Of a DNA stretch of 64,000 bases, positions 38,970 through 52,207 are shown in pieces. Numbering within the stretch: the stretch's first letter is position 1; every line of letters starts with the position of its first letter. The stretch spans positions 1-64,000 of IMG/VR virus record IMGVR_UViG_3300028800_000061. One strand, 5' to 3'. Both the position numbers and the translations under genes were made by a program. A model generated the notes under the pieces. That model searched no databases, was not told the DNA's origin, and was given only the letters and a program-made list of their open reading frames with translations. This stretch comes from a virus.

Positions 38970-39043
38970 AGGGATGTAGCTCAACTTGGTAGAGTAGCGG
39001 TCTCCAAAACCGCTGGTTGTGGGTTCGAATCCTGCCATCCCTG
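38970..39043 (+). tRNA. tRNA-Trp(CCA)
   Basis: Manual cloverleaf; GCGGT CT-CCA-AA ACCGC. Confidence 0.93.
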
Positions 39044-39169
39044 CGGAGCACCACCCTTCGGGGGGAATGTGCCTGGCACACCTTGATAACTCCACAGCGG
39101 AAACACCATGATTAACCGTTCCCGTCGCGCGGCGTGGCCAGCCGGCCGGTCGCGCGACGGGAACACCAT

Positions 39170-39243
39170 GGGGCTTTAGCGCAGCCCGGTAGCGCGCCTC
39201 GTTCGCATCGAGGAGGCCGCCGGTTCGAATCCGGCAAGCTCCA
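39170..39243 (+). tRNA. tRNA-Ala(CGC)
   Basis: CCTCG TT-CGC-AT CGAGG; G3:U70. Confidence 0.92.
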
Positions 39244-39321
39244 CGGCGGGAAGTTGAGGGTTCGAATCCCTCCTGGTCCACGCATTGGGCTGGTACCTCA
39301 ATTGGCAGAGGCCCGCATCTT
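39244..39321 (+). ncRNA. Circularly permuted tRNA-like element (3' half before 5' half)
   Basis: T arm 39256-39272, acceptor strands 39273-39279 / 39287-39293, D arm 39296-39311, closing stem GCGGG/CCCGC. Confidence 0.65.
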
Positions 39322-39394
39322 GGGACTGTAGCTCAGCTGGTAGAGCACCTGCTCGGCAGGCAGGGGGTCCGCGGTTCAAATCCGCGCAGTTCCA
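39322..39394 (+). tRNA. tRNA-Ala(GGC)
   Basis: CCTGC TC-GGC-AG GCAGG; G3:U70; C33. Confidence 0.9.
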
Positions 39395-39536
39395 CCGTCC
39401 CGGTTGCGGCATGCCGCACGATGGGGCAAGCGGTGTGCTGCCGCCAGCAACGTGTACGCAGTAAGGGCGAGCGGCCCGGAACTGGCTCCGTGACGACGGG
39501 GCAAAGCCGGGCGGCGGCAGTACGGGCCGTCTTTCA

Positions 39537-39613
39537 GGGGATGTAGCTCAGCTGGGTAGAGCAGCCGCCCTGCAAGCGGCAGGTCATCGGTTCGACTCCG
39601 TTCATCTCCACCA
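39537..39613 (+). tRNA. tRNA-Ala(TGC)
   Basis: GCCGC CC-TGC-AA GCGGC; encoded CCA; C33. Confidence 0.92.
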
Positions 39614-39709
39614 GGTGCCCGGTCTCGTGGCCTAAGCCGCCACGGGGCAGGCGGGCACCCCGTGGCCGGCGTGCCTCCCGGGTGGCTCCCGGGCCGCCGG
39701 CCACGTGAA

Positions 39710-39783
39710 CGGGATGTAGCGCAAGCTGGTAGCGCACCTGGTTTGGGACCAGGGGGTCGTCGGTTCGATTCCGGCCATCCCGA
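39710..39783 (+). tRNA. tRNA-Pro(TGG)
   Basis: CCTGG TT-TGG-GA CCAGG. Confidence 0.94.
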
Positions 39784-39787
39784 CTAC

Positions 39788-39861
39788 GGCTACTTAGCTC
39801 AGTCGGTACGAGCGCGCCCCTGAAAAGGGCGAGGGCCCCCGTTCGATCCGGGGAGTAGCCA
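39788..39861 (+). tRNA. tRNA-Phe(GAA)
   Basis: CGCCC CT-GAA-AA GGGCG. Confidence 0.93.
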
Positions 39862-39865
39862 CTGT

Positions 39866-39937
39866 GCGGGCGTGGCCGAATGGTTTAGGCACCTGGCTTC
39901 CAACCAGGACACGCAGGTTCGATTCCTGTCGCCCGCT
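39866..39937 (+). tRNA. tRNA-Gly(TCC)
   Basis: CCTGG CT-TCC-AA CCAGG. Confidence 0.93.
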
Positions 39938-39941
39938 CTCC

Positions 39942-40014
39942 GCGCCGCTAGCTCATCTGGCAGAGCAGCAGACTCTTAATCTGCGGGTGCGGGGTTCGAG
40001 TCCCTGGCGGCGCA
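39942..40014 (+). tRNA. tRNA-Lys(CTT)
   Basis: GCAGA CT-CTT-AA TCTGC. Confidence 0.94.
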
Positions 40015-40036
40015 CACAGAAACGGGGGTGAAGGCG

Positions 40037-40567
40037 ATGAGGCCGGCGATCCTGATCGACGTGGATGAGGTCCTCAACCCCTCGTTCCGCTGCAACCCCC
40101 CGTACTGCCGGTGCCACCCCCACTGGATCCGGGCGTTCGCTTACGCCCGGGACGGGCAGAAACTCAAGCTGATCCTCAACCCGGCGCACGGCCCGGCCCT
40201 GCTGCAGCTGGCCGCCGACACGGGTGCGGAGCTCGCCTGGTGCACATCCTGGGAGGACCAGGCCAACGACGACATCGGACCCCGGATCGGCCTGCCCCGG
40301 CTGCCGGTGGTCCCGTACCCGCCCCGCCCGAAAACAGGCCCTGGCTCAGTACTGGCCGTGGGCGCGTGGAAAGCACGCCACGCCGTGGCATGGGCCGCAC
40401 GCCGCCCGTTCGCATGGTTCGAGGATGAGCCCGACGCGGGCCCGGAATGCTTCCGGCTCCTCGGTGCCGCACCGCACCTGGTGATACCGGTGGACCGCCG
40501 GACCGGGCTGACCGTGGGCCACATGAACGAGGCTTGGGACTGGCTGAGCGAGCTTACGCGGGCGTAA
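40037..40567 (+). CDS. HAD-domain phosphatase (Swiss-Army-Knife RNA-repair type)
   Basis: LIDVDEVLNP, WCTSW, FAWFEDE, GLT. Confidence 0.82.
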   Translation: MRPAILIDVDEVLNPSFRCNPPYCRCHPHWIRAFAYARDGQKLKLILNPAHGPALLQLAADTGAELAWCTSWEDQANDDIGPRIGLPRLPVVPYPPRPKTGPGSVLAVGAWKARHAVAWAARRPFAWFEDEPDAGPECFRLLGAAPHLVIPVDRRTGLTVGHMNEAWDWLSELTRA

Positions 40568-40632
40568 CCCAATCTGGCAGAGGTGGCAGTCTCAAAAGCT
40601 GCACGGTGCGGGTTCGAGTCCCGCCGCCCGCA
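40558..40632 (+). tRNA. tRNA-Leu(CAA), short variable arm
   Basis: GCAGT CT-CAA-AA GCTGC. Confidence 0.88.
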
Positions 40633-40633
40633 C

Positions 40634-40933
40634 TCACCTGACGAAGGTGAACATCTCGGTCAGGTGCAGGATATCGAGTAGCCGGCGGACAGCCTGTGAT
40701 GGTGCCCGCAACGCCAGCGTGCTGCCTGTCTCTGCCGCCAGTTGTCGGGCGGCGAGTAGCACGCGGATCCCTGATGCGTCCATGAATGACACTGCGGACA
40801 TGTCCGCGATCAGGTCAACCGGGCCGCCGTAGAGGACAGTGCTCATGGCGTTCCCCATGGCAGCGCAGGTGGCGATATCAATCTCGCCGGAGATGCGAAC
40901 TGTGGTGATGGTGGACAGCAGAAGGTCTGTCAT
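40634..40933 (-). CDS. STAS-domain anti-sigma-factor antagonist
   Basis: SGEIDIAT, DMSAVSFMDASG, VRRLLDI. Confidence 0.88.
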   Translation of the reverse strand: MTDLLLSTITTVRISGEIDIATCAAMGNAMSTVLYGGPVDLIADMSAVSFMDASGIRVLLAARQLAAETGSTLALRAPSQAVRRLLDILHLTEMFTFVR

Positions 40934-41091
40934 TGCGGGGGCCCTCCGCACTTGTGCAGCGCGATAGGGCTGGGTCCGGACCCTTTGGCGGCGACTATAT
41001 CCCGATCATGAGCGGGGTTGTCCAGGCACATTGGCAGAGTCTAGGCGATTAGGCAATTGCAAGATGTTCCGGCCCGTAGGGCTGGGAGTAA

Positions 41092-41163
41092 TGCCGGGTG
41101 GGGTAATTGGCAGCCCGCGAGGCTCTGATCCTCGTCGTGTAGGTTCGAGTCCTGCCCCGGCAG
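41092..41163 (+). tRNA. tRNA-Gln(CTG)
   Basis: CGAGG CT-CTG-AT CCTCG; U1:A72. Confidence 0.92.
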
Positions 41164-41175
41164 CTAAGATGTTGC

Positions 41176-41247
41176 GCCCCCGTAGCTCAGTGGTAGAGCG
41201 ACCACCTCGTAAGTGGTAGGCCAGCGGTCCGATTCCGGTCGGGGGCT
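41176..41247 (+). tRNA. tRNA-Thr(CGT)
   Basis: ACCAC CT-CGT-AA GTGGT; atypical T-loop TCCGATT. Confidence 0.88.
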
Positions 41248-41264
41248 CAGGGAGACCGGCAGAG

Positions 41265-41292
41265 ACGCCCTGTCCTGGCCAGGACAGGGCGT
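41265..41292. repeat. 28-bp perfect palindrome
   Basis: ACGCCCTGTCCTGG|CCAGGACAGGGCGT. Confidence 0.9.
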
Positions 41293-41395
41293 GCGATACC
41301 GGAACTGTCTCCCAGGTCCCGGCCAGGAGATGGCCACCTGGTCAAGGAAGCCAAGTCCTGTATCATGGCGCTACGGTCATCAAACCTGTTGACTG

Positions 41396-41466
41396 CGGCG
41401 CCGGCGGGATTCGAACCCACACCCAAACCATACGACTGGCATGCTCATCCATTGAGCTACGGCGCC
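41396..41466 (-). pseudogene. Antisense tRNA-like gene, undetermined anticodon
   Basis: Intact acceptor, D and T arms; anticodon arm TGCCA GTCGTA TGGTT has a 6-nt loop. Confidence 0.7.
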
Positions 41467-41601
41467 TGAAGCTGGCCCGTACGACCGTGTCCGCCAAGGC
41501 CTGGTCGTCGGGCCTTCTTCCATCTTGGGTGGCTGATGGACAGGGACCGGATTCTCCCACCCGGCTTGGCGCACGGAACCGGTGTACGTGTTGCGGGCCG
41601 C

Positions 41602-41675
41602 GTCCTCGTAGACCAATGGCAGGAGTCACGGCCCCGAGGAGGCCGGCAGTGTGCGTTCGAATCGCACCGAGGACA
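41602..41675 (+). tRNA. tRNA-Leu(GAG), short variable arm
   Basis: CGGCC CC-GAG-GA GGCCG; C33. Confidence 0.85.
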
Positions 41676-41676
41676 C

Positions 41677-42024
41677 ATGAGCGATGACTACGACCTGACC
41701 TCCGTGCATTACGCCGAGCCGGTTTTCGGCATGCAGATGGGCACCGGGGTCCTCCGCACCCACGGCGCCTCGGCTTGCGCCGGCCGGGCCTGCTGCATCC
41801 ACAACCCGTCCGCCCATCACATGCGCGGCTGGGAGATGAACTGGCGCGGTGACCTGCGCGTAATGGAGCGGATCTGCCCGTGCCATGGCGTCGGCCATCC
41901 GGACCCGGATGATGTGGCGTACCGGCGCTTGATCGGCCGCGGCGGTGGCACCCACGGCTGCCATGGGTGCTGCCATGCCGGCCATGCGCCGGATGATGGG
42001 ACCGGGCACTCTATGCCCCTGTAG
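41677..42024 (+). CDS. Cys/His-rich phage-type protein
   Basis: CCIHNPSAHHM...MERICPCHGVGHPDPDD...HGCHGCC. Confidence 0.72.
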   Translation: MSDDYDLTSVHYAEPVFGMQMGTGVLRTHGASACAGRACCIHNPSAHHMRGWEMNWRGDLRVMERICPCHGVGHPDPDDVAYRRLIGRGGGTHGCHGCCHAGHAPDDGTGHSMPL

Positions 42025-42091
42025 CTCAGTTGGCAGAGCAGCCCCCTTGTAAGGGGCAGGTCGCAGGTTCAAATCCTTGTCAGGGGCTCCA
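42015..42091 (+). tRNA. tRNA-Thr(TGT)
   Basis: GCCCC CT-TGT-AA GGGGC; encoded CCA. Confidence 0.9.
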
Positions 42092-42149
42092 TAACCGGCC
42101 AGACTGTTACAATGCGTGACATCCTGGGTTTTCCTGGCCGGAGGCCGCA

Positions 42150-42485
42150 GTGACCAAGCAACGATCCCCCTGGCTTCTCATCCTGATCTTGGTTGCCAGT
42201 TACGCGATCGGCCACCTGGCCGGCCTGATCCTCACCGCCGTGATCGCGTTCCTCGCCTACCTGGTGTCCGTTCGGATGAACCCGCGGATCGCGTGCCGCA
42301 AATGCGACGGCAAAGGCCGGTTCAACGGGTGGCTGTTCACCTGGGTGTGGCACTTCTGCCACCACTGCGCAGGCAAGGGCGCCGGAATCCGGTGGGGTGC
42401 GGCACGGTGGGGGACTGAGGCCGCCCGCGCTGAAGCGCTCCGGAACCAAACCACGCTGAAGAACGCGACCACTCGACGCCGCTGA
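42150..42485 (+). CDS. Membrane protein with CxxCxGxG Zn finger
   Basis: SD GGAGG; two TM; CRKCDGKG, CHHCAGKG. Confidence 0.72.
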   Translation: MTKQRSPWLLILILVASYAIGHLAGLILTAVIAFLAYLVSVRMNPRIACRKCDGKGRFNGWLFTWVWHFCHHCAGKGAGIRWGAARWGTEAARAEALRNQTTLKNATTRRR

Positions 42486-42503
42486 TTAGAAGGAACCGCC
42501 GCT

Positions 42504-42992
42504 TTGGGTAGCAAGCATGAACGGCACGCACGATCCAAGGAGTGGGACACCCCACCAGCCCGATCCGCTGAGGTGCGTGCCGCTGCGGTAGCAGACCAGG
42601 GCGAGCCGGTGAAACGGACCCCGGCCCGGAAGGACACAGCCCGCTGGTGCGGCGGTCACACCGGTCGTGAACACGCCCCGCATCTGATGACACCGGCAGA
42701 AACGACTGGGTGGCGGCAGCGCGCATGCGGGTGGGTGACCACCTGGGACCGCAGGGAACGCGACTACAAGATCGCATGGCGTTGCGGGCACTGGGTGCGG
42801 TGCGGGCAGTGCGGCCGGACCCTCCGTGACATCGGATCCCTGGAGCTCACCGAGTGCAAGACTTACCCCGGGACCAAGGTGCAGCGCGCCGCAGCCGAGG
42901 CAGACCTGGCCGACTACCGGGTGCGCAGGGCGAAATGGGCCAGGCGCAGGCTGGTGATCAACGGGCCACAGGGATACCGCAGATCCCGTTAG
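42504..42992 (+). CDS. Cys/His Zn-binding protein
   Basis: SD AAGGA; RWC...H.PHL...WRCGH...CGQCG; paralogous to 51267-51716. Confidence 0.7.
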   Translation: MGSKHERHARSKEWDTPPARSAEVRAAAVADQGEPVKRTPARKDTARWCGGHTGREHAPHLMTPAETTGWRQRACGWVTTWDRRERDYKIAWRCGHWVRCGQCGRTLRDIGSLELTECKTYPGTKVQRAAAEADLADYRVRRAKWARRRLVINGPQGYRRSR

Positions 42993-43177
42993 CCCGGTTC
43001 GACGTAGTAGCCGACACCAGGAAAGCCGCACACAGGGCAGTCGTTCTGCGTGTGATCCGATCCGGGGATGCCGGCGCACGCTGCCACCAGCAGGGCACGG
43101 TACGCCGCGGTGTACTTCTCGCCTGTGCGCTCCATGCGCTCCCGGACGAGATCCTTGAGTTCGCCGCTACCTGTCAT
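42989..43177 (-). CDS. Small hypothetical protein
   Basis: KDLVRERMERTGEKYTAAYRAL. Confidence 0.55.
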   Translation of the reverse strand: MTGSGELKDLVRERMERTGEKYTAAYRALLVAACAGIPGSDHTQNDCPVCGFPGVGYYVEPG

Positions 43178-43370
43178 CGTTCATCCGCTGCCCGGCGGCC
43201 GCTGCCCGCGCTCCGGTCGCCGTGATTGCTGGGCGATGACAGTAGGTGGTGAACGCGATCCCGAACTTTGCGGTTCGTGGGGTCCTTGTCCTCGGCGCTG
43301 ACGTGGACGCGGGCCGCGGCAGCTCGGAGAGTGGCAGGCGCTCTCAGCCAACCGGAAGTGTAACAGCCGA

Positions 43371-43446
43371 TGGGGAATAGGGTAATCAGGCAGCCCGCCA
43401 GGTTTTGGCCCTGGGTCTTGTGGAGGTTCGAGTCCTCCTTCCCCAG
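43371..43446 (+). tRNA. tRNA-Gln(TTG)
   Basis: CCAGG TT-TTG-GC CCTGG. Confidence 0.88.
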
Positions 43447-43469
43447 CTAGCAACGGGGAGGGACCGTCA

Positions 43470-44027
43470 ATGTCGAACCGGTTCGTGACGGCAGACCTGC
43501 ATCTGATGCACATCGCTCAGTCCGGCCGCCGTGGTTACGCCACTGCCGCCGAGCACGATGAAGCGATCATCACCACATGGAATGAGATCGTGCGACCGCG
43601 CGACATGGTGATCGTGCTCGGCGATGTCGGCGTGGCCCCATCCCGGCTGTTCCTGCCGCTGATCGGGCAGCTGCACGGCACCCTGGACTTGATCTCCGGC
43701 AACCACGACGAGGTACACCCGATGCACCGTGGCGCGGCGGCGAAGATGGCGGCGTGGATAGGGCCCGGACGGTTCCGGTCGATCGGATCCCAGGGCATGC
43801 TGCGGGCTGGCACGCACCGGGTAATGCTGTCCCACTTCCCGTACAAGGGTGATCACACAGCGAAAGACCGGTGCGCGGAGTGGCGTCCCCGGGATGAAGG
43901 GTTGCCGTTGTTCCACGGGCACACGCATTTCAAGGATCGCGGCGGCGGCCAGGTGGTCCATGCCGGCTGGGATGCGTGGGGAGCACCTGTCCCAGTCGAT
44001 ACGCTGTGTGCGTTGATTGCCGCGTAA
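43470..44027 (+). CDS. Calcineurin-like metallophosphoesterase
   Basis: ADLH, LGD, GNHD, SHFP, HGHTH. Confidence 0.92.
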   Translation: MSNRFVTADLHLMHIAQSGRRGYATAAEHDEAIITTWNEIVRPRDMVIVLGDVGVAPSRLFLPLIGQLHGTLDLISGNHDEVHPMHRGAAAKMAAWIGPGRFRSIGSQGMLRAGTHRVMLSHFPYKGDHTAKDRCAEWRPRDEGLPLFHGHTHFKDRGGGQVVHAGWDAWGAPVPVDTLCALIAA

Positions 44028-44033
44028 ATTTAG

Positions 44034-44106
44034 GCCGCTGTAGCTCAGCCGGCAGAGCACCTGCATGGTAAGCAGGAGGTCCCGGGTTCGATTCCCGTCA
44101 GCGGCT
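44034..44106 (+). tRNA. tRNA-Thr(GGT)
   Basis: CCTGC AT-GGT-AA GCAGG. Confidence 0.92.
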
Positions 44107-44157
44107 CGGCGGGGGAGAGTTAACCAATCTAGCGCCTGGACGCTCTCCCCCGCGCGT

Positions 44158-44230
44158 GTGGATGTGGCTCAGCTGGTAGAGCATCACCTTGCCAAGGTGA
44201 GGGTCGCGAGTTCGAATCTCGTCATCCACT
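44158..44230 (+). tRNA. tRNA-Gly(GCC)
   Basis: TCACC TT-GCC-AA GGTGA. Confidence 0.95.
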
Positions 44231-44300
44231 CCGGTTGCCCAGTTCCCCGTAACTTGGTATAGTTGAGCAAAACTAGGTTACGGGAAGCTGGGATCTTGAT

Positions 44301-44528
44301 ATGGCAGAGCTGCAGGCCATCCTCGCCATCCAAATCGCCGGGGACCGTCCCGGCGGCGGGCGCACCTACTCCCACGAAGAAATCCTCGACGGGGCCGACT
44401 GGGCAACACGTGCGCAAGTACTGGATCACATGCTCAGCCAGATTGACTTGCGATACCGCACAGCCACAGAGACCTCACGAGCCGATATGACCATCCTCAA
44501 TTTCACCGTCGAGCCGAACAACCTGTGA
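44301..44528 (+). CDS. Hypothetical protein
   Basis: Protein-like ORF after hairpin 44238-44293. Confidence 0.5.
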   Translation: MAELQAILAIQIAGDRPGGGRTYSHEEILDGADWATRAQVLDHMLSQIDLRYRTATETSRADMTILNFTVEPNNL

Positions 44529-44566
44529 TGGAACGGCAACTCCGCGGTGGCGAGGTGGGCGGCTAG

Positions 44567-45244
44567 TTGCTGTACCTCGCAAACCCGTCAACGACGCCTA
44601 TACGGCAAGCCATGACCAGCTATGAACTCGGCTGCATCATCACCCCCAGGCAAGGCAACCGCCTCCCCAGGGAAGCGCTCTGGGGTGCCGACAACGGGTG
44701 CGGCCCTGGAAAAAACGGCATGATCGGCCAAGGGTTCCCCGGCTACGAGCCCTTCCTGGGAATGCTCCAAGACCACGCCGACTACGCCGACGATTGCTTG
44801 TTCGCGGTAGCACCCGATGTGGTAGGCGATGCGGACGGGACGCTTAAACGGTCCAAGTGGATGCTCGAATGGATCCGTTACGCCGGCTACCCGGCCGCGC
44901 TCGCCGCTCAAGACGGACTGGAGAACCTGACGGTGCCCTGGGATGATTTCGACGCCTTGTTCATCGGCGGCAGCACAGCGTGGAAACTTGGCGCCGCGGC
45001 CCGCCGGCTGATCGCCGAAGCGAACCGGCGGAACAAGTGGGTTCACATGGGCAGGGTCAATACACTGAAACGTCTCCGGTACGCGGCCACGGTCGGATGT
45101 CACAGCGTAGATGGCACGTTCCTCACATTCGGCCCGGATATCAACCTGCCGCGGCTGCTCCGGTACCTCCGGATCGTCAACACGCAACCAACTTTGTGGG
45201 CGTCGAGCTGGCCGCCGCCGCTCCCGTTGACGGTCGCAGCATGA
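44567..45244 (+). CDS. Queuine tRNA-ribosyltransferase (TGT/DpdA)-like protein
   Basis: ADNG, APDVVGD, AQDG, FIGGST, VHMGRVN, SVDGT, matching the TGT-fold pattern. Confidence 0.7.
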   Translation: MLYLANPSTTPIRQAMTSYELGCIITPRQGNRLPREALWGADNGCGPGKNGMIGQGFPGYEPFLGMLQDHADYADDCLFAVAPDVVGDADGTLKRSKWMLEWIRYAGYPAALAAQDGLENLTVPWDDFDALFIGGSTAWKLGAAARRLIAEANRRNKWVHMGRVNTLKRLRYAATVGCHSVDGTFLTFGPDINLPRLLRYLRIVNTQPTLWASSWPPPLPLTVAA

Positions 45245-45831
45245 CCGGCCAGATCCATGTAGCAGGCGAGGGTCAGCAGCTTGCCTTGCCGGGAACGCTA
45301 TGGCCAGCAGGCTGCGACCGCGGGCAAGGAGACCCGCTGTTCTTCGGGAAGCTTAAAAAGGACCAGGCGAACGACCTGATCGCAGCGTTCGGTCACCCAC
45401 TCGGCCCGTTCACCCGCCCGTTCGGGTACCAGGCATGGGGCCTGGCGATCGATGGGCAAGCCGTCGCTGTCGCGATATCCGGATCAACTGTCGGCGCGAC
45501 CTCTGCCGGATACAAGCGCAGGCAAGTTGTCGACCTCGCCCGGATCGCACGCCACCCAGACCACCCAGGAGTCATGAGGGTCATGCTGCGCTTGTGGCGG
45601 GACTACCTCGCGCCGCGGTGGGATTACGGAGACGGGCAGGTGCAAGCCGCTGTCTCCTACGCACTGCCCGGCAAAGCAGGGAACCTGTACCGGTTCGACG
45701 GGTGGAAGCTTCACGGGTACTGCAAACCGTGGGCTGGCGGCGGCACCTGGAGCAAACCGTCGAAAGCGAACGGGATGGCTGATGGGGTAAAGAAGCTGTT
45801 CTACTACGAGTACCCGCAGCGGGTGGCGTGA
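45241..45831 (+). CDS. Mom-like GNAT-fold protein
   Basis: AVAISG...DLARIA...AVSYA...GNLYRFDGWK. Confidence 0.6.
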   Translation: MTGQIHVAGEGQQLALPGTLWPAGCDRGQGDPLFFGKLKKDQANDLIAAFGHPLGPFTRPFGYQAWGLAIDGQAVAVAISGSTVGATSAGYKRRQVVDLARIARHPDHPGVMRVMLRLWRDYLAPRWDYGDGQVQAAVSYALPGKAGNLYRFDGWKLHGYCKPWAGGGTWSKPSKANGMADGVKKLFYYEYPQRVA

Positions 45832-46919
45832 TGCTCGCCACTGAGGCAGATGTACTGCGGACCCTGAGAACCGGCACTTACACCGTCAGCGAACTGTACG
45901 ACCTGTGTGAACAGCGAACAGTGGTCGGCCGGGATGGTGGCCAGGACCCCATCCCGGCCCACTCAGGTGATCTCCGGTGGAAGCGCCGCGTTCGCGGCGC
46001 TCTGGAGACTCTGCGCCGGGCCGGCCGGGCCGAGCGGATCGACCGGACCTGCTGGGCAATCCAGGGCACACCCCGCCAGCCGGCCCGCCTGCTGCTGATC
46101 GTGACCGGCGCAACCCCGCGTGACTTCGAACTGCGATTGCAGGCCGCGGCCGAACTGCTCGCCGAACTGGACGAGCCTGCCGACCTGGTGCTGTGCGACC
46201 CGCCGTACGGACTGCGCCGCGGCCGCGGCCACTACACCGACGGCAACGGGTACCGCCGCGACCACACCAGCGTGATCGGCGGCTACGTCGACGTCGACCC
46301 GGGCGAGTACTCCGACTTCACCCACGATTGGATCCGGGCCGCAGCCGCTGCGCTCCGGCCGGCCGGGCAGCTCGCCACGATCACCGGACCGCAGCGTGCC
46401 GCGATCGTGCAGTGCGCCGCCGAGCAGGCCGGGCTCACCTGGGTCAGTACCATCGCCGCCCGGCGCACTTTCCCGCTGGCCACACTGCGCCGGCCAGCCG
46501 CAGCGCATTGGGCCATCACGGTCATGTGCCGCAACGCGCTGAGCAACCCTCGCCGGGTGTTCAACCCGCCACCCGATCTGCCCAGGGCCCGCAGCGGCCA
46601 CCCTTACCCGCTGGACTGGTGGGCTGACGGCAACGGCCGGGCCGACCGCCCCGGGCTGCTCCGCTACGACAACAGCCTCCCGCTTCCCCTTGTCCTGCGG
46701 GCGGTCACCGCGTTCAGTAACCGCGGCGAGCACGTCGTAGACCCGTTCCTCGGCGCGGGCACAACCGCTGTCGCCTGCTGGAAAACCGGCCGGCGCTTCA
46801 CCGGCAGCGACCTGAATCCAGCCGCCGTCCGCTTCGCAGCCGCACGGCTGCTCGATGAGCACGCCTGGCCGGATGAGCGCGAGCCAGGATTGTTTCCCGC
46901 AATGGATGTCGCGCCGTGA
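45828..46919 (+). CDS. N4/N6 DNA methyltransferase (beta-type order) with N-terminal wHTH
   Basis: DLVLCDPPY precedes VVDPFLGAGTT. Confidence 0.85.
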   Translation: MMLATEADVLRTLRTGTYTVSELYDLCEQRTVVGRDGGQDPIPAHSGDLRWKRRVRGALETLRRAGRAERIDRTCWAIQGTPRQPARLLLIVTGATPRDFELRLQAAAELLAELDEPADLVLCDPPYGLRRGRGHYTDGNGYRRDHTSVIGGYVDVDPGEYSDFTHDWIRAAAAALRPAGQLATITGPQRAAIVQCAAEQAGLTWVSTIAARRTFPLATLRRPAAAHWAITVMCRNALSNPRRVFNPPPDLPRARSGHPYPLDWWADGNGRADRPGLLRYDNSLPLPLVLRAVTAFSNRGEHVVDPFLGAGTTAVACWKTGRRFTGSDLNPAAVRFAAARLLDEHAWPDEREPGLFPAMDVAP

Positions 46920-47461
46920 GCACCGGCCTGGCCGCGATCAACCTGGACCTGATCGAGGACGCGGCGAACATCCTGGCGTGGCGCGGCTGGTGGGAACCCG
47001 GCGATGAGGACAGCTTCGTACCCGACGAGCTCGTCACCGAACTGATCGAGGCTGCCCGGGCTCCTTGCGAGGTCTGCAGCACACCGGAGGGGGTGTGCAG
47101 CACACCGGACGAGGTGGCCGATCACTTCCTCGCCCGCAAACAGGAAGAGTGGGAACGGTCCTGGCCGGCGTGGGCATGCAACTGCGGTCACGTTTACAAA
47201 CTGCTCAATGAAGAGTTCTTCGAGGTCGCAGACAACGGGTTCCACGGCCCGTTCTGCGCCGGCATGGCCGGGGAGCAAGATTGCCCGCACCCATCCTGCG
47301 CGAGCATTCTGCTCGGCGGCCACCTGCCGGGGGATCGCGCCGGGTGCATCCGCCGCGGCAGCAAGAACCGGGTCAAGCACAGCGACGCATGCCGGGGATG
47401 CGGCTGCAAGTTCGCGGATACGATAGCCGACCAGCTCAACCCGCAGCAGGCCCTGTTCTAG
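46916..47461 (+). CDS. Cys-rich hypothetical protein
   Basis: GTGA overlap; several CxxC. Confidence 0.65.
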   Translation: MSTGLAAINLDLIEDAANILAWRGWWEPGDEDSFVPDELVTELIEAARAPCEVCSTPEGVCSTPDEVADHFLARKQEEWERSWPAWACNCGHVYKLLNEEFFEVADNGFHGPFCAGMAGEQDCPHPSCASILLGGHLPGDRAGCIRRGSKNRVKHSDACRGCGCKFADTIADQLNPQQALF

Positions 47462-47565
47462 AAGATCCTGGCAGTAAAGTCGTGCACCTGCGCTCAGCGG
47501 GTTGCGGCACAATCGTGCGGGCGGTGATCTGAATTAGTCCATCGGGATCACCGCCCGCGCGCCTT

Positions 47566-47640
47566 GCCCCTCTAGCCCAATCCGGCAGAGGCGCCACGTT
47601 CAGGGCGTGGAGGTTCGGGGTTCGACTCCCCGGAGGGGCA
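47566..47640 (+). tRNA. tRNA-Leu(CAG), short variable arm
   Basis: CCACG TT-CAG-GG CGTGG. Confidence 0.88.
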
Positions 47641-47644
47641 CTTG

Positions 47645-47732
47645 GGAGGGGTCGCCTAGTCGGCCTATGGCGCGTCACTGCTAATGACGTTGGGCATTGC
47701 GTCCCTCGCGGGTTCGAATCCCGCCCCCTCCG
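47645..47732 (+). tRNA. tRNA-Ser(GCT)
   Basis: CGTCA CT-GCT-AA TGACG; long variable arm. Confidence 0.93.
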
Positions 47733-47735
47733 CAC

Positions 47736-47828
47736 GGAGACGTCGCGCAGTGGCCTAGCGCTCTAGTCTTGAAAACTAGCAGAGCACGGGAGTGTCTCTC
47801 GTGGGTTCGAATCCCACCGTCTCCTCCA
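47736..47828 (+). tRNA. tRNA-Ser(TGA)
   Basis: CTAGT CT-TGA-AA ACTAG; long variable arm; encoded CCA. Confidence 0.93.
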
Positions 47829-47829
47829 A

Positions 47830-47903
47830 GGGCATGTAGCTCAGCCGGTTAGAGCACTCCCCTGATAAGGGAGAGGCCGGAGGTTCAACTCCTCCTGTGC
47901 CCA
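47830..47903 (+). tRNA. tRNA-Ile(GAT)
   Basis: CTCCC CT-GAT-AA GGGAG. Confidence 0.93.
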
Positions 47904-47994
47904 CTGCCAGCAGGCCACTGCGGCCGGGGTTGTCGCAGCGACAACAGGGCCGGGAAGCCCCCGGGCCGCGGGCCTGCTGGCCACGACGGGAGCG

Positions 47995-48264
47995 GTGGTG
48001 TCAGGGCGGCAGCGGCAGCGGAACCGGCTCGGGCGGCGGCAGGGGTGGATCTGCCCGTGGTGCCGCCTCCCGATCACCCGCGCCCAGTTCGCGGATGCCA
48101 CCCGCGACCATGTGATCCCGAAGTCCCACGGAGGCACTGCGGTACTGCGGAACCTCCAGTTGCTGCACGGCGAGTGCAACGCGGAGAAAGCGAGCCGGTG
48201 CCTGGGTTGCCCCCGGTGCGTCCCTGGCGAGATAGCTCAGCCGGTCAGAGCGTCCCGCTCATAA
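47995..48264 (+). CDS. HNH endonuclease
   Basis: CPWC...TRDHVIPKSHGG....NLQLLHGECNAEK. Confidence 0.88.
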   Translation: MVSGRQRQRNRLGRRQGWICPWCRLPITRAQFADATRDHVIPKSHGGTAVLRNLQLLHGECNAEKASRCLGCPRCVPGEIAQPVRASRS

Positions 48265-48302
48265 CGGGATGGTCGCAGGTTCAAGTCCTGCTCTCGCTAC
48301 CA
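48226..48302 (+). tRNA. tRNA-Met(CAT), elongator-type
   Basis: TCCCG CT-CAT-AA CGGGA; GGC... acceptor; encoded CCA (Ile2 identity not excluded). Confidence 0.88.
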
Positions 48303-48376
48303 GTACGCCAACATGCAGTCCTAGATAGGGGAGGTGAACGGGTTGAAACCCTGCGGTAAACAGATACGCATCGCAG

Positions 48377-48450
48377 GCCCTGTTAGCTCAATTGGATAGA
48401 GCAGCGGACTTTTAATCCGCGAGTTCTGGGTTCGAGTCCCAGGCGGGGCA
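48377..48450 (+). tRNA. tRNA-Lys(TTT)
   Basis: GCGGA CT-TTT-AA TCCGC. Confidence 0.93.
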
Positions 48451-48454
48451 CAAT

Positions 48455-48526
48455 GCGCTGTTAGCTCAGTGGATAGAGTGACTGCCTTCTAAGCAGGGGA
48501 GCGGGGTTCGAATCCCTGACGGCGCG
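48455..48526 (+). tRNA. tRNA-Arg(TCT)
   Basis: ACTGC CT-TCT-AA GCAGG; A20. Confidence 0.88.
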
Positions 48527-48541
48527 CAAAGCACAAGGCAA

Positions 48542-48615
48542 GCCCTGGTGGGGTAATTGGCCAGCCCGCCACCCTCTCACGGTGGAGACTGCCGGTTCGA
48601 ATCCGGTCCGGGGTA
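48542..48615 (+). tRNA. tRNA-Glu(CTC)
   Basis: CCACC CT-CTC-AC GGTGG. Confidence 0.9.
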
Positions 48616-48616
48616 C

Positions 48617-48692
48617 GGCGCGGTAGGCAAAATGGAGAAGGCCGCCAGACTTTCAACCTGGTGACTTGCGGGTTCGAGCCCCGTCCGCGCTA
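48617..48692 (+). tRNA. tRNA-Glu(TTC)
   Basis: CCAGA CT-TTC-AA CCTGG. Confidence 0.85.
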
Positions 48693-48706
48693 CTATGGGA
48701 TCACGA

Positions 48707-48780
48707 CGCGGGGTGGAGCAGCTCGGTAGCTCGGTGGGCTCATAACCCACAGGTCGCAGGTTCAAATCCTGTCCCCGCTA
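48707..48780 (+). tRNA. Initiator tRNA-fMet(CAT)
   Basis: C1 mismatch, three G:C pairs GGG CT-CAT-AA CCC. Confidence 0.95.
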
Positions 48781-48895
48781 CCGCCGTGCCGGGTCGGCTC
48801 CGGTCGCGGCTAATTACGGCTGGCAGACGTGCTAGGGCCCGTGGCGGATTGGGGATCTAGCCGACCCCGCGTGAAGCGCGACGGGCACCAACCTT

Positions 48896-48967
48896 TCCCC
48901 CGTAGCTCAATAGGCAGAGCGTCCGGCTGTTAACCGGTTGGTGTTGGTTCAAGTCCAGCCGGGGGAG
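48896..48967 (+). tRNA. tRNA-Asn(GTT)
   Basis: TCCGG CT-GTT-AA CCGGT. Confidence 0.9.
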
Positions 48968-48971
48968 CGAT

Positions 48972-49046
48972 GGTCCTGTAGAGCAGGTTGGAGTGCTCGC
49001 CACCCTGTCAAGGTGGAGGTCGCGGGTTCAAATCCCGTCGGGACCG
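48972..49046 (+). tRNA. tRNA-Asp(GTC)
   Basis: CCACC CT-GTC-AA GGTGG. Confidence 0.95.
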
Positions 49047-49050
49047 CTAA

Positions 49051-49122
49051 ACCCGGTTAGCTCAGTGGCAGAGCACCACGATGACAGCGTGGGGGTCGGA
49101 GGTTCGGTTCCTCCACCGGGTA
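49051..49122 (+). tRNA. tRNA-Val(GAC)
   Basis: CCACG AT-GAC-AG CGTGG. Confidence 0.88.
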
Positions 49123-49314
49123 CAGGCACCTGGGAGCCTGGCTTCAAATGGCAGGAGCAAAGTGATAACGCGCCGAAAGGCTATGCCCACTCCGGTGGGC
49201 GGGTAGCGGTCGCCCAGGTGCCGTTGCACACCGAGAGGATCGCCTTGCTGACCGGGTATGTCTTGCTGCCGGGTGATTGTGACAGCCCGGCCGCGGCAGC
49301 GTTAGGCTCCCGGC

Positions 49315-49869
49315 ATGCTTCTCTCTGACCGGGACATCGCCGACGCGATCGCGGCCCGCGACCTGGTGGTAGACGGCGAGCTGGCCAGCGACTCATTCCA
49401 GCCTGCCAGCCTCGATCTGCACCTTGGCGCCGAGTTCCGGGTGTTCCTCAGTCACCGGGTCGCTTGCATCGACACTGCCGGCGGCCAGGGGGATCTCACT
49501 GAACCGGTAGTGATCTCCGACGGTGAGCCGTTTGTCCTGCACCCCGGCGAGTTCGCCCTCGGCTGCACTGTGGAGGCCATCACTCTCTCCGATGATCTGG
49601 CCGCCCGGCTCGAAGGCAAATCCAGTCTCGGCCGCCTCGGCCTGCAAGCGCACTCCACCGCCGGGTGGATTGACCCAGGGTTCAGCGGGCAGATCACCCT
49701 GGAGTTGTCCAATGTCGCCCCGGTACCGATCAAACTGTGGCCTGGCATGAAAATCGGCCAGCTGTGCTTGTTCCGCCTGGGCGCCCCGGCGTTGCGCCCG
49801 TACGGGCACCCGGGCCTCGGCTCCCGTTACCAGGGGCAGCGAGGCCCGGTGCCGTCCCGGGCTGGTTAG
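49315..49869 (+). CDS. dcd: dCTP deaminase
   Basis: [51 protein letters not shown]. Confidence 0.95.
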
Positions 49870-50216
49870 TGGCTGGAGTAGGAGCTGGTGGTCCGTCGCC
49901 ACCGTTCCGTCCACGCCCACTGGTCTAGCACCAGTTGGGTGAACGACTGGTCATCCATCTGCATGGTGTCCGTCACGGACCACCTGAGCATCTCGATCGC
50001 CGCGTCGTAGTCGGCGGTGTGGTTCTCCGGCTCGGGCAGGTCGGCGTGCCGGTCCGCCTTCTGGCCGGCCCGCAGTTCGGCGATCCGGTCCTGGTGCCAG
50101 CCGATCATCTGCTCCCGGTAGGCGACGATAGCCTCCTGGTAGGTGGCGAGGTGCGCGGCCCGGTTGGCTTCCAGCGCCTCGAGCAGCCTGGCGCGGTCAA
50201 CGGTTACTGGTCTCAT
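49866..50216 (-). CDS. Phage-type hypothetical protein
   Basis: NRAAH...[15 protein letters not shown]...LVLDQWAW; SD lies antisense in tRNA-Arg acceptor stem. Confidence 0.75.
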
Positions 50217-50221
50217 TTCTT

Positions 50222-50295
50222 GCTCCCATAGCTCAGTGGATTAGAGCGCCGCCCTCCGGAGGCGGGTGCCGCAGGTTCGAGTCCTGCTGGGGGCG
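50222..50295 (+). tRNA. tRNA-Arg(CCG)
   Basis: CCGCC CT-CCG-GA GGCGG. Confidence 0.92.
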
Positions 50296-50298
50296 CGC

Positions 50299-50727
50299 TT
50301 AACTGCTCAGCGGATCTGTGCGCGGTGCCGGCCACTCGGGGGCCGCTGTGAAATCGGCCGGGTCGACGCTGCCGAGCTCGCAGACGCGGGTGACCAGGTC
50401 GATGTACGCGGCGCTGGGATCGTCGCCGCGGCCGATCGGCCACCGTTCCTGGTTGGCCCGGTGCCAGAAATCCTGGCACTCGATGTCCGATGCGGCCCAG
50501 TCCGTCCAGGGCGTCTCGGTCAGCATGTGCGGGTCCACGGGGAACGCCAGCCAACTGCGACCCTCGTAGGTGCCGTTGTACCTGGCCTGCACAACAACCG
50601 CAGGCTCGGCTTCTGGCCGGTTACCGAAACCACCTGCGGTGATGTAAAGCTTCGCGGTCAGCATTATTTTTCCGCCGGGTGCACCGGGCCACTCAACGAA
50701 GATGCTTCGCTCATTCACACCGGGCAT
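50299..50727 (-). CDS. Hypothetical protein
   Basis: ARYNGTYEG..WLAF...IGRG; fits exactly between two tRNAs. Confidence 0.65.
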   Translation of the reverse strand: MPGVNERSIFVEWPGAPGGKIMLTAKLYITAGGFGNRPEAEPAVVVQARYNGTYEGRSWLAFPVDPHMLTETPWTDWAASDIECQDFWHRANQERWPIGRGDDPSAAYIDLVTRVCELGSVDPADFTAAPEWPAPRTDPLSS

Positions 50728-50743
50728 TGTTTCACGTATCGTT

Positions 50744-50816
50744 ACCCCCGTGGCCCAACGGATAAGGCGCCAGACTACGGATCTGGAGTGTGCCGGTTCA
50801 ACTCCGGCCGGGGGTA
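50744..50816 (+). tRNA. tRNA-Arg(ACG)
   Basis: CCAGA CT-ACG-GA TCTGG. Confidence 0.92.
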
Positions 50817-52205: not shown

Positions 52206-52207
52206 CG

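What the first reader, a model, noticed from the sequence alone, without database searches (positions are those of the whole stretch)
39244..39321. Circularly permuted tRNA-like RNA filling the whole spacer between two tRNA-Ala genes
Seen, in order: CG | GCGGG | AAGTT | T arm GAGGG-TTCGAAT-CCCTC | CTGGTCC-A | CGCATT | GGGCTGG | TA | D arm CCTC-AATTGGCA-GAGG | CCCGC | ATCTT. The 3' half precedes the 5' half, yet the halves pair: acceptor 7/7 (three G:U, including the Ala determinant G3:U70, with A73) closed by a short loop, and anticodon stem 5/5. The leftover ends (ATCTT + CG) sum to exactly 7 nt with U33, giving anticodon CUU if ligated; nucleotide 26 is missing. Maturation of the flanking tRNAs would release it precisely. 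Established: permuted tRNA genes are known from algae and an archaeon, and bacterial YrlA Y RNAs use the same T-acceptor-D topology but have a long Ro-binding stem, absent here (no Ro/TROVE gene in the window). Inference: a bacterial permuted tRNA, an anticodon-less tRNA decoy immune to anticodon nucleases, or a minimal Y-RNA-like mimic.
Basis: partly seen in the sequence, partly recalled or inferred. Interest (0 to 1): 0.88.

Follow-up and report, generated by a model that had tools for sequence, protein, structure and literature searches.

The report
Handle-less permuted tRNA-Ala mimic gene
The 78-base spacer between two alanine tRNA genes of this large soil phage is a real, conserved small-RNA gene shaped like an alanine tRNA with its two halves swapped and no anticodon. 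It is a stripped-down, Ro-independent relative of bacterial and phage Y RNAs, and its function is unknown.

Summary
Window 39246-39316 folds as a 5-bp closing stem, variable loop, T arm, loop-closed 7-bp acceptor stem and D arm. With the halves swapped, ARAGORN calls it a tRNA.

It is not a chance remnant. An orthologue sits in the same slot (Trp, Ala, element, Ala) of a second about 149-kb phage. That copy shows 4 compensatory and 3 wobble changes and no disrupted pair. Five further homologues and more than 20 other "handle-less" modules lie 1-2 nt after a tRNA in phage tRNA arrays. Covariation is strong. A model built without this element or its orthologue scores it at 80 bits, against 45 bits for the best tRNA-junction false positive.

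Its subfamily keeps G1-G2-G3:U70, A73 and C74. C74 follows all 35 plus-strand tRNA genes of this array that Rfam delimits. This points to tRNA-like opening of the acceptor loop, CCA completion and possibly alanylation.

It is not a decoding permuted tRNA. The "7-nt loop/CUU" does not hold, because the leftovers are 5-6 nt and vary between homologues. No RtcB or Rnl2-type ligase was found.

It has YrlA topology but no Ro-binding stem, and the phage has no Ro-like gene. Its closest sequence relatives are Ro-linked YrlA domains of Streptomyces phages. This scan has noted handle-bearing relatives many times on other DNA. The handle-less Ala-type looks like a new variant. Function is inferred only.

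The parts
39170..39244 (+). Upstream tRNA-Ala(CGC). 39243 is its discriminator A73 and 39244 its encoded C74. Its 3' maturation would create the element's 5' end.
   Evidence: ARAGORN and Rfam. C74 follows all 35 Rfam-delimited plus-strand tRNA genes of the array.
39245..39245 (+). Single spacer nucleotide (G) before the closing stem.
   Evidence: Homologues have one nucleotide (G or A) here after the upstream C74.
39246..39250 (+). Closing stem, 5' strand (GCGGG). It is equivalent to tRNA positions 39-43.
   Evidence: MFE fold. 4 of its 5 pairs show changes on both sides among homologues.
39251..39255 (+). Variable loop (AAGUU). U48 can form the Levitt pair with A15 (39301).
   Evidence: The Levitt pairing is read from the sequence and is an inference.
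39256..39272 (+). T arm: GAGGG, loop UUCGAAU, CCCUC.
   Evidence: 100% of cells paired; 2 pairs with compensatory changes.
39273..39279 (+). Acceptor 3' strand (positions 66-72). U70 is at 39277.
39280..39286 (+). Loop closing the acceptor stem: A73 (39280), C74 (39281), then GCAUU. Predicted 3' trimming and CCA completion after 39281; predicted RNase P cut between 39286 and 39287.
   Evidence: A73-C74 is invariant in 7 of 7 subfamily members and matches the array-wide tRNA rule. The cleavage sites are inferred from M. smegmatis YrlA (PMC4201824).
39287..39293 (+). Acceptor 5' strand (GGGCUGG, positions 1-7). G3 is at 39289.
   Evidence: Pairs 1-3:70-72 are invariant, including G3:U70. Pairs 4:69, 5:68 and 6:67 covary.
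39294..39295 (+). U8-A9 connector.
   Evidence: Invariant in all 7 subfamily members and TA in 43 of 44 modules (TG in one).
39296..39311 (+). D arm: CCUC, loop AAUUGGCA (A14, G18, G19, A21), GAGG. It has C10:G25 in place of the usual G10:C25.
   Evidence: Pair 10:25 is C:G, G:C or G:U among homologues.
39312..39316 (+). Closing stem, 3' strand (CCCGC, positions 27-31). Nucleotide 26 is absent.
   Evidence: Nucleotide 26 is also absent in L338, L192 and L196.
39317..39321 (+). 5-nt tail (AUCUU). It also serves as the 5' leader of the next tRNA.
   Evidence: The orthologue has AUCU. Other homologues have 3-6 nt of unrelated sequence.
39322..39395 (+). Downstream tRNA-Ala(GGC) with its C74 at 39395. 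RNase P cleavage at its 5' end would create the element's 3' end.

Best explanation
Window 39245-39321 is a small non-coding RNA gene. It is a circularly permuted derivative of a tRNA-Ala and has the topology of the tRNA-like domain of YrlA-type Y RNAs. It lacks the long Ro-binding 'handle', and the phage has no Ro-like protein.

Shown:
- The structure.
- Conservation in the same array slot of a second phage.
- Membership of a family of handle-less modules packed into phage tRNA arrays like tRNA genes.
- Covariation in all four helices.
- Invariant G1-G2-G3:U70, A73 and C74 in its subfamily.

Inferred:
- It is co-transcribed with the array.
- Its 5' end is made by 3' maturation of tRNA-Ala(CGC), after C39244. 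Its 3' end is made by RNase P cutting 5' of tRNA-Ala(GGC), before 39322.
- Its own 7-bp acceptor plus T arm is then recognised as a tRNA. RNase P would cut between 39286 and 39287. The 3' side would be trimmed to A73-C74 and completed to CCA.
- The product would be a two-piece, L-shaped tRNA-Ala body with a 5-bp stub in place of the anticodon arm. It could be charged by AlaRS, which needs only the acceptor stem.
- Because it cannot decode, it would act as a tRNA-body or acceptor-end mimic. It might compete for or titrate a host or phage factor that recognises tRNA elbows or acceptor ends.
For: Structure and tRNA likeness.

Orthologue: L338:12187-12257 lies between tRNA-Ala(GGC) and tRNA-Ala(CGC) in a syntenic Trp-Ala-element-Ala-Pro-Pro-Phe array of a 148.9-kb phage. 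It has the same acceptor 5' strand, the same ACGCAU loop and an AUCU tail. Against the G000 element it shows 4 double (compensatory) and 3 wobble-compatible changes and no broken pair.

Subfamily alignment A1 (7 sequences): 97.9% of cells paired, and 10 of 21 pairs changed on both sides. 0 of 500 shuffles reached this, and slid controls gave 37-59% paired.

Wider set of 44 modules: 95.9% paired, 18 of 21 pairs changed on both sides.

Held-out model R2: 80.1 bits for this element, 44.8 bits for the best junction false positive.

Family signature scan of IMG/VR: 23 distinct handle-less modules lie 1-2 nt after a tRNA, and many lie 3-6 nt before the next one.

tRNA-like end rule: C74 follows 35 of 35 array tRNAs while position 75 is random. 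The same holds in other arrays. All Ala-type modules have A73-C74 and G3:U70, while pairs 4-7 covary.

Precedent: M. smegmatis YrlA, which has a 7-bp acceptor, is cut by RNase P in vitro and in vivo and receives CA to complete its CCA (PMC4201824).

No parental tRNA copy exists in this genome or its kin.
Against: No expression or end-mapping data exist for this or any handle-less member.

Three more distant relatives with syntenic arrays lack the element at this slot (L165, G002, G003).

One contig of a second metagenome appears to join 39243 directly to 39322. The support is weak (25-nt side, 80% likeness).

Selection bias: members L338 and L287 were found with a pattern that forced GGG/UCC/AC. 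I also kept only hits with paired stems, so the paired percentages are partly selected.

The larger subgroup of handle-less modules (type II) has arbitrary acceptor sequences and no N73-C74 rule, so opening and charging cannot be general to the class.

RNase P cleavage of a 7-nt-loop-closed acceptor stem is untested here.

No partner protein or target is identified.
Confidence: 0.5

Rival explanations
1. Closed-acceptor elbow mimic. The RNA is released as one 77-nt molecule, the acceptor loop is never opened, and it works like the tRNA-like domain of YrlA by binding a protein that recognises the tRNA elbow. It would do so without Ro, as a free competitor or cofactor.
For: It has the same T-acceptor-D topology as YrlA, and Rfam YrlA is the best non-tRNA match (33.4 bits). 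Most YrlA RNAs are thought to keep closed acceptor stems (bioRxiv 10.1101/312249). Type II handle-less modules have non-tRNA acceptor sequences that look designed to stay closed. The D and T loops keep all elbow nucleotides.
Against: Simple helix stability does not explain why the weak G3:U70 wobble, A73 and C74 stay invariant while pairs 4-7 turn over. It also does not explain why C74 follows the rule of genuine tRNA 3' ends. A 7-bp acceptor with G1 is the form of YrlA that RNase P does cut.
Confidence: 0.28
2. Neutral by-product. The element is a rearrangement scar of the tRNA-Ala block, such as a tandem duplicate that lost its outer halves. It is carried along as a harmless structured spacer that is cut out during tRNA processing.
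For: tRNA arrays are fluid. The order of the Ala genes differs between G000 (CGC, element, GGC) and its relatives (GGC, then CGC). The element is absent from the same slot in L165, G002 and G003. Decayed tRNA-like sequences exist in related arrays. There is a possible element-less variant in a metagenome.
Against: All 21 base pairs and all tertiary-contact nucleotides are intact, although there is no close parent copy. The orthologue shows compensatory changes. Homologues sit in other array slots of unrelated phages, and about 80%-identical domains occur in Ro-linked YrlAs of cultured Streptomyces phages. The held-out model gives a high score.
Confidence: 0.1
3. tmRNA-TLD-like inhibitor. As an alanine-type tRNA-like domain without an mRNA part, it titrates SmpB (or AlaRS or EF-Tu) and damps host trans-translation. 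This has been proposed for the TLD-only ssrA of mycobacteriophage DS6A.
For: It carries the G3:U70/A73 acceptor. Its 22-nt T-arm/acceptor string is identical to that of a phage permuted tmRNA (L010). Permuted two-piece tmRNAs show that bacteria can process such genes (PMC11915505). The DS6A TLD-only form is recorded, and a similar molecule inhibits tmRNA (PMC4131195).
Against: It has a full 4-bp D stem and U8-A9 like a tRNA, unlike tmRNA TLDs. Rfam tmRNA_permuted scores only 13.2 bits against a threshold of 47. ARAGORN calls no tmRNA in the window. SmpB-binding features were not tested.
Confidence: 0.07
4. Genuine circularly permuted tRNA gene. The two ends are ligated into a 7-nt anticodon loop (CUU), and the acceptor loop is removed to give a decoding tRNA.
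For: The swapped sequence is called tRNA-Lys(ctt) by ARAGORN. RNase P and RNase Z would leave the 3'-OH and 5'-P ends that an Rnl1-type ligase can join (inference).
Against: C39244 belongs to the upstream tRNA, so the loop would be 6 nt. Homologues leave 5 nt with unrelated 'anticodons'. Position 37 would be a pyrimidine. Nucleotide 26 is missing. No RtcB or Rnl2-type ligase was detected in the genome. The T4 Rnl1 search also found nothing, but its controls did not ring, so that result is not informative. Alanine identity combined with a lysine anticodon would misincorporate. A normal tRNA-Lys(CTT) already sits 600 nt downstream.
Confidence: 0.02

Closest known systems
YrlA (Y RNA-like A; Rfam RF02553) of bacteria and actinobacteriophages, bound by Ro60/Rsr (Chen et al. 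2014, PMC4201824; Wang et al. 2018, bioRxiv 10.1101/312249)
   Same: The order T arm, loop-closed acceptor stem, D arm is the same, and the tRNA elbow nucleotides are kept. The element is 79-81% identical over about 57 nt to unannotated modules 0.1-0.7 kb upstream of 'Ro-like RNA binding protein' genes in Streptomyces phages BRock, Kenrey and pSt2308. Those modules also carry G3:U70 and A73; BRock and Kenrey also have C74 (pSt2308 has U74). The 7-bp acceptor matches the M. smegmatis YrlA that RNase P cleaves.
   Different: There is no long terminal stem or Ro-binding motif, only a 5-bp stem that abuts tRNA genes. There is no TROVE or DUF2828 gene in the 159.8-kb genome. It scores 33.4 bits against a gathering score of 69. 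It sits as a unit inside a tRNA array, the very context that the original YrlA survey discarded as tandem-tRNA false positives.
Circularly permuted tRNA genes of red and green algae and Thermofilum (Soma 2007; Chan 2011, PMC3218864; review PMC3978253)
   Same: The 3' half is encoded upstream of the 5' half. The acceptor is closed by a short linker. The ends fall in the anticodon region.
   Different: Those genes are matured through a bulge-helix-bulge motif, a splicing endonuclease and a ligase into decoding tRNAs. Here there is no such motif or enzyme, the loop remnant is not conserved, and no decoding role is likely.
Two-piece (permuted) tmRNA, and the TLD-only ssrA of mycobacteriophage DS6A (PMC11915505, PMC4131195)
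   Same: It is a bacterial or phage permuted gene of an alanine-type tRNA-like domain. tRNA-processing enzymes turn such genes into base-paired pieces. It carries G3:U70 and has no anticodon.
   Different: It has a full D arm and tRNA-type connectors. It has no mRNA module and no pseudoknots. It fails the tmRNA_permuted model.
Engineered circularly permuted 'nicked tRNA' of Chen and Wolin 2023 (PMC10159003)
   Same: The design is identical: one transcript that starts and ends in the anticodon loop, with the acceptor end closed by a loop. It was used as a mimic of a tRNA cut by an anticodon nuclease.
   Different: That RNA is artificial, and it binds RtcR only when it ends in a 2',3'-cyclic phosphate. 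The natural element should end in 3'-OH and 5'-P.
Handle-bearing phage Y-like RNAs ('helix + ACAGCAA' handle) noted repeatedly by this scan
   Same: They carry the same permuted tRNA-like module and are also embedded in phage tRNA arrays.
   Different: Those sit on a conserved handle and co-occur with a DUF2828 Ro60-like gene: 9 of 16 records were positive, G002 and G003 among the negatives. This element has neither.

Membership tests
YrlA / bacterial Y RNA (RF02553) | tRNA-like domain in the order T arm, closed acceptor stem, D arm | tested here: met
YrlA / bacterial Y RNA (RF02553) | Long stem formed by the 5' and 3' ends that carries the Ro60-binding helix | tested here: not met
   Only a 5-bp stem is present. 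The flanks are complete tRNA genes 2 nt upstream of the stem (C74 plus one spacer G) and 5 nt downstream.
YrlA / bacterial Y RNA (RF02553) | Encoded near (within about 4 kb of) a Ro60/Rsr gene | tested here: not met
   There is no TROVE match in the whole genome, with positive controls. There is no DUF2828 match; the same search did ring in other phages.
YrlA / bacterial Y RNA (RF02553) | Reaches Rfam gathering score (69 bits) | tested here: not met
   It scores 33.4 bits. tRNA junctions in the same genome reach 29 bits.
Circularly permuted tRNA gene (decoding) | 3' half upstream of 5' half, and the halves restore a cloverleaf | tested here: met
   ARAGORN on the swapped halves.
Circularly permuted tRNA gene (decoding) | The termini restore a conserved 7-nt anticodon loop with a defined anticodon | tested here: not met
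   The loop is 6 nt once C74 is assigned to the upstream tRNA. It is 5 nt, with different triplets, in L338 and L192.
Circularly permuted tRNA gene (decoding) | Excision and ligation machinery (BHB motif with splicing endonuclease and ligase) | tested here: inconclusive
   No RtcB or Rnl2-type ligase is in the phage genome. The Rnl1 search lacked a working control. Host enzymes are unknown.
Permuted (two-piece) tmRNA | Alanine-type acceptor (G3:U70) in a permuted tRNA-like domain | tested here: met
Permuted (two-piece) tmRNA | mRNA-like module with resume codon and tag; match to tmRNA models | tested here: not met
   ARAGORN finds no tmRNA in the window. tmRNA_permuted scores 13.2 bits against a threshold of 47. 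There is no room before the next tRNA.
Handle-less array-embedded permuted tRNA-like modules (family defined here), Ala-type subfamily | 4-6-bp closing stem, V loop, T arm, closed 7-bp acceptor, UA, D arm, lying 1-2 nt after a tRNA; G1-G2-G3:U70, A73, C74 | tested here: met
   The held-out model gives 80.1 bits.
Canonical tRNA (RF00005) | Colinear cloverleaf with an anticodon arm | tested here: not met
   No tRNA call at 39245-39321 by Rfam or ARAGORN.

The most novel reading that the evidence does not exclude
Phages of actinobacteria encode a family of Ro-independent, two-piece, alanine-accepting tRNA bodies that lack an anticodon. These would be non-decoding aminoacyl-tRNA mimics, made by the ordinary tRNA-processing enzymes from permuted genes hidden in tRNA arrays. 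They could serve as decoys or titrators in conflicts over tRNA: against acceptor-end-targeting toxins such as tRNA nucleotidyltransferase, acetyltransferase or HEPN-type enzymes, or against SmpB, AlaRS or EF-Tu. They would also be living intermediates between tandem tRNA genes and Ro-bound Y RNAs.
Probability: 0.25. Interest if true: 0.85.

Novelty: new variant of a known kind. Interest (0 to 1): 0.66.

Why it matters
Y RNAs with tRNA-like domains are known only as partners of Ro60, and what their tRNA-like domain does is an open question. Here the same domain occurs naked, in phages without any Ro-like gene. It is conserved with covariation and packed into tRNA arrays as if it were a tRNA.

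Its alanine identity elements and the tRNA 3'-end rule (A73-C74) are kept. This makes a concrete, testable prediction: RNase P opening, CCA addition and charging. If true, it would give the tRNA-like domain a function of its own.

The element also supplies natural examples of the 'nicked tRNA mimic' that had been built only artificially. It supports the proposed origin of Y RNAs from tandem tRNA genes.

On the practical side, members of the wider handle-less class sit unannotated, or mis-annotated as a tRNA-Leu, in cultured Cluster M mycobacteriophages and Streptomyces phages. Experiments are therefore feasible.

Tried and rejected
- RNA evidence: no RNA holder was listed for the stretch. The two DNA metagenome runs gave one identical contig and no informative polymorphism.
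- Exact or near-exact orthologue patterns found nothing in metagenome contigs or viral contigs.
- Relatives sought through the HAD-like gene and DnaB in viral contigs gave nothing useful. DnaB and the PAPS-reductase-like protein did not link G000 to G049 or G033.
- Folding the 227-nt precursor gave an uninformative misfold.
- There are no terminators and only a weak promoter-like site nearby.
- attP-remnant idea (3' tRNA half as an integration core): rejected. The 25-mer of T arm plus acceptor occurs in no bacterial species representative, only in one Nanoarchaeia MAG. The idea also does not explain the matching 5' half.
- My loosened scanner (6 of 7 acceptor pairs, relaxed T loop) was too noisy to use.
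- I first inferred that the ACAGCAA-handle class was Ro-less, because TROVE was absent.
- The 243-aa ORF next to the two YrlA-like RNAs at 153 kb has no PHROG hit (Pfam was not searched) and no homologue in G001-G003. It cannot be proposed as a partner.
- Literature searches found no description of handle-less or array-embedded permuted tRNA-like genes in phages. The Cluster M paper (PMC3958112) is not held.

Full report
**What the window is.** The window is the first 64 kb of a 159,823-bp IMG/VR virus record. The record is about 98% complete and has 66% G+C. It looks like an actinobacteriophage. It carries an Lsr2 gene just upstream of the array. The nearest cellular homologues of an array-embedded HAD-like gene come from Actinomadura, Spirillospora and Thermomonospora. 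The source samples are rhizosphere metagenomes. ARAGORN finds 37 tRNA genes between 38970 and 53237. Rfam finds 36 tRNAs and nothing else at gathering thresholds.

- tRNA-Ala(CGC) ends at its discriminator, 39243, and tRNA-Ala(GGC) starts at 39322.
The fold has a 5-bp GCGGG/CCCGC stem, a 5-nt variable loop, a perfect T arm, a 7-bp acceptor stem closed by a 7-nt loop, U8-A9 and a 4-bp D arm with A14, G18, G19 and A21.
- With the halves swapped, ARAGORN returns a cloverleaf labelled tRNA-Lys(ctt).
- The acceptor has G1:C72, G2:C71, G3:U70 and A73, which is the alanine identity set.
- The restored sequence is closest, in both halves separately, to a canonical tRNA-Ala(UGC) of another phage (L011). 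It has no close parent in its own genome or among its kin. L011 was found through a shared 22-mer, so this comparison is biased.

**It is not an accident of two decayed tRNAs.**

The key evidence is comparative. I scanned IMG/VR for a signature that normal tandem tRNAs cannot give: two T loops only 24-34 nt apart, followed by a D arm. The scan returned 58 places. Parsing them gave 23 distinct "handle-less" modules. Each module has a 4-6-bp closing stem, V loop, T arm, closed 7-bp acceptor, UA and D arm. Each starts 1-2 nt after a tRNA gene, and many end 3-6 nt before the next tRNA.

A second scan found L338:12187-12257, in a 148.9-kb phage that is 98% complete.
- The array there reads Trp, Ala(GGC), element, Ala(CGC), Pro, Pro, Phe.
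- The whole Trp-to-Ala region aligns with the window.
- This orthologue keeps the acceptor 5' strand, the ACGCAU loop and an AUCU tail.
- It differs from the G000 element by four compensatory double changes: one in the closing stem, two in the T stem and one in the D stem.
- It also differs by three wobble-compatible single changes. No pair is broken.

With five further homologues (L192, L196, L191, L212, L287), the structure shows 97.9% paired cells and 10 of 21 pairs changed on both sides. None of 500 shuffles reached this, and slid controls gave 37-59% paired. A model-based alignment of 44 modules gave 95.9% paired and 18 of 21 covarying pairs.

A model built without the G000 element and its orthologue scored the element at 80.1 bits and the orthologue at 70.6 bits. 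The best tRNA-junction false positive in the window scored 44.8 bits.

Caveats: two members were found with a pattern that fixed GGG/UCC/AC, I retained only hits with paired stems, and the model alignments lean towards the model's structure.

**Relation to Y RNAs.**
- Rfam's YrlA model is the best non-tRNA match, but at 33.4 bits against a gathering score of 69. Its "Ro stem" columns fall on the neighbouring tRNAs. tRNA junctions in the same genome score up to 29 bits.
- BLAST of the element against cultured phages finds unannotated modules, 79-81% identical over about 57 nt, lying 0.1-0.7 kb upstream of "Ro-like RNA binding protein" genes in Streptomyces phages BRock, Kenrey and pSt2308. These are classical phage YrlAs. 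They carry the same alanine-type acceptor (G3:U70, A73; C74 in BRock and Kenrey, U74 in pSt2308).
- The G000 element is therefore the tRNA-like domain of an actinophage YrlA without the handle.
- The phage has no TROVE gene (controls positive) and no DUF2828 gene.
- Of 13 near-complete phage records with handle-less modules, 11 lack TROVE, and none of 24 records has DUF2828.
- By contrast, high-G+C handle-bearing modules co-occur with TROVE. "ACAGCAA-handle" modules co-occur with DUF2828.
- The same genome also carries two stem-mounted YrlA-like modules at 152.8-153.1 kb, beside a 243-aa ORF with no PHROG hit. That is another finding's subject.

**Why I think the acceptor loop is opened.**
- In this array, all 35 plus-strand tRNA genes that Rfam delimits encode C at position 74, while position 75 is random. 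The same holds in the arrays of related and unrelated actinophages, for example 37/37, 38/38 and 15/15. Mature ends must therefore be made by trimming to N73-C74 and adding CA.
- All seven members of the element's subfamily have A73-C74 at the start of the acceptor loop, a G1 start, and an invariant G3:U70 wobble. Pairs 4:69, 5:68 and 6:67 turn over with compensation. Helix stability alone would not preserve a G:U wobble or the two unpaired nucleotides.
- Four of the members, plus G000, came from a scan that placed no constraint on the acceptor.
- M. smegmatis YrlA is the one studied YrlA with a 7-bp acceptor. It is cut by RNase P in vitro and in vivo, and its 5' fragment receives CA to complete a CCA tail (PMC4201824).
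- By analogy, the element should yield two base-paired pieces that form an L-shaped tRNA-Ala body with a 5-bp stub instead of an anticodon arm. AlaRS recognises the acceptor stem independently of the anticodon; this is established knowledge, not tested here.
- These steps are inferred. A larger group of handle-less modules (type II) has arbitrary acceptor sequences and no N73-C74. One example is the conserved tRNA-Pro(UGG), module, tRNA-Gly(UCC) unit. This group probably stays closed.

**Why it is not a decoding permuted tRNA.**
- C39244 is the upstream tRNA's C74, so the remnant loop is 6 nt.
- In L338 and L192 it is 5 nt with different triplets.
- Position 37 would be a pyrimidine, and nucleotide 26 is missing.
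- The phage encodes no RtcB or Rnl2-type ligase and no CCA enzyme. The Rnl1 search lacked a working control.
- An alanine-charged reader of lysine codons would be harmful.
- A normal tRNA-Lys(CTT) lies 600 nt downstream.

**What it may do.** This is open. Three precedents frame the options.
- The YrlA tRNA-like domain is thought to recruit an unknown elbow-binding protein.
- An engineered permuted tRNA of the same design serves as a nicked-tRNA mimic and binds RtcR when it carries a cyclic phosphate (PMC10159003).
- A TLD-only tmRNA gene occurs in mycobacteriophage DS6A, and a similar molecule inhibits trans-translation (PMC4131195).

I rank the readings as follows:
- Non-decoding, opened, alanine-type mimic: 0.5.
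- Closed elbow mimic: 0.28.
- Neutral by-product: 0.1.
- tmRNA-like titrator: 0.07.
- True permuted tRNA: 0.02.

Points against function: the element is absent from the same slot in three more distant relatives, and one weakly supported metagenome contig skips exactly these 78 nt.

**Novelty.** I found no description of handle-less, array-embedded permuted tRNA-like genes in the held literature. The original YrlA survey explicitly discarded hits that overlapped tandem tRNA genes. This scan has repeatedly noted handle-bearing relatives in other phages. I file this as a new variant of a known kind. Members of the wider class sit unannotated in cultured Cluster M mycobacteriophages and 46-kb Streptomyces phages. 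In one record a module is partly annotated as tRNA-Leu(aag).

Noticed in passing
G000 152845-153079, minus strand (L002:1440-1800): Two further permuted tRNA-like modules sit on long interrupted stems (YrlA model 49.6 and 17.5 bits; my model 59 and 39 bits). They start 7 nt after a 243-aa ORF with no PHROG hit (Pfam not searched). The genome has no Ro-like gene.
   Followed up: partly
window 38970-53237 (all Rfam-delimited plus-strand tRNA genes): C is encoded at position 74 after 35 of 35 tRNA genes, while positions 75-76 are not CA. The same rule holds in many actinophage arrays (37/37, 38/38 and others). This implies trimming to N73-C74 and addition of CA.
   Followed up: yes
L041 (G002) 15369-15224 and 13225-13153, minus strand: A related phage has three handle-less modules in other array slots. 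Two are in tandem after tRNA-Pro(GGG), and one follows tRNA-Leu(GAG). A degenerate tRNA-like sequence next to them is conserved in G003 (L039:10920-11010).
   Followed up: partly
L206, L210, L227, L211 and cultured Streptomyces phages Immanuel3, HaugeAnator, Romero and others: A conserved unit tRNA-Pro(UGG), handle-less module, tRNA-Gly(UCC) has covarying acceptor stems. It occurs in phages from 27% to 60% G+C and is unannotated in GenBank records.
   Followed up: partly
L183, L184, L198, L203 = Cluster M mycobacteriophages (MrMagoo, Aziz, Estes, GardenSalsa, GenevaB15): A handle-less module lies directly after tRNA-Asn. In GenevaB15 part of it is annotated as tRNA-Leu(aag), probably a mis-call.
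   Followed up: partly
window 41395-41466, minus strand: ARAGORN reports a tRNA with a 2-nt anticodon, and Rfam scores a tRNA at 47 bits. It lies on the strand opposite to the whole array.
   Followed up: no
window 39080-39100; L338 11860-11880; L165 3609-3630; L039 7405-7435: A conserved block (TTGA-A/G-AACTC-C/A-ACAGCG) lies downstream of tRNA-Trp in four related arrays. In the window it overlaps a promoter-like site (39083-39112).
   Followed up: no
window 40028-40567: A 179-aa gene inside the array matches weakly the HAD domain of 'Swiss Army Knife' RNA-repair proteins (PF18143, 22.6 bits, below cut-off). Its best cellular homologues are in Actinomadura, Spirillospora and Thermomonospora, which hints at the host.
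   Followed up: partly
window 39243/39322 in run X2: One metagenome contig (depth 7.6, 25-nt side) joins the two tRNA-Ala genes directly and skips exactly the 78-nt element. It is either a variant or relative without the element, or a cross-match from another phage.
   Followed up: no
L010 1388-1913, minus strand: A low-G+C viral contig carries a permuted tmRNA (ARAGORN). Its T arm and acceptor 3' strand are identical over 22 nt to those of the element.
   Followed up: no
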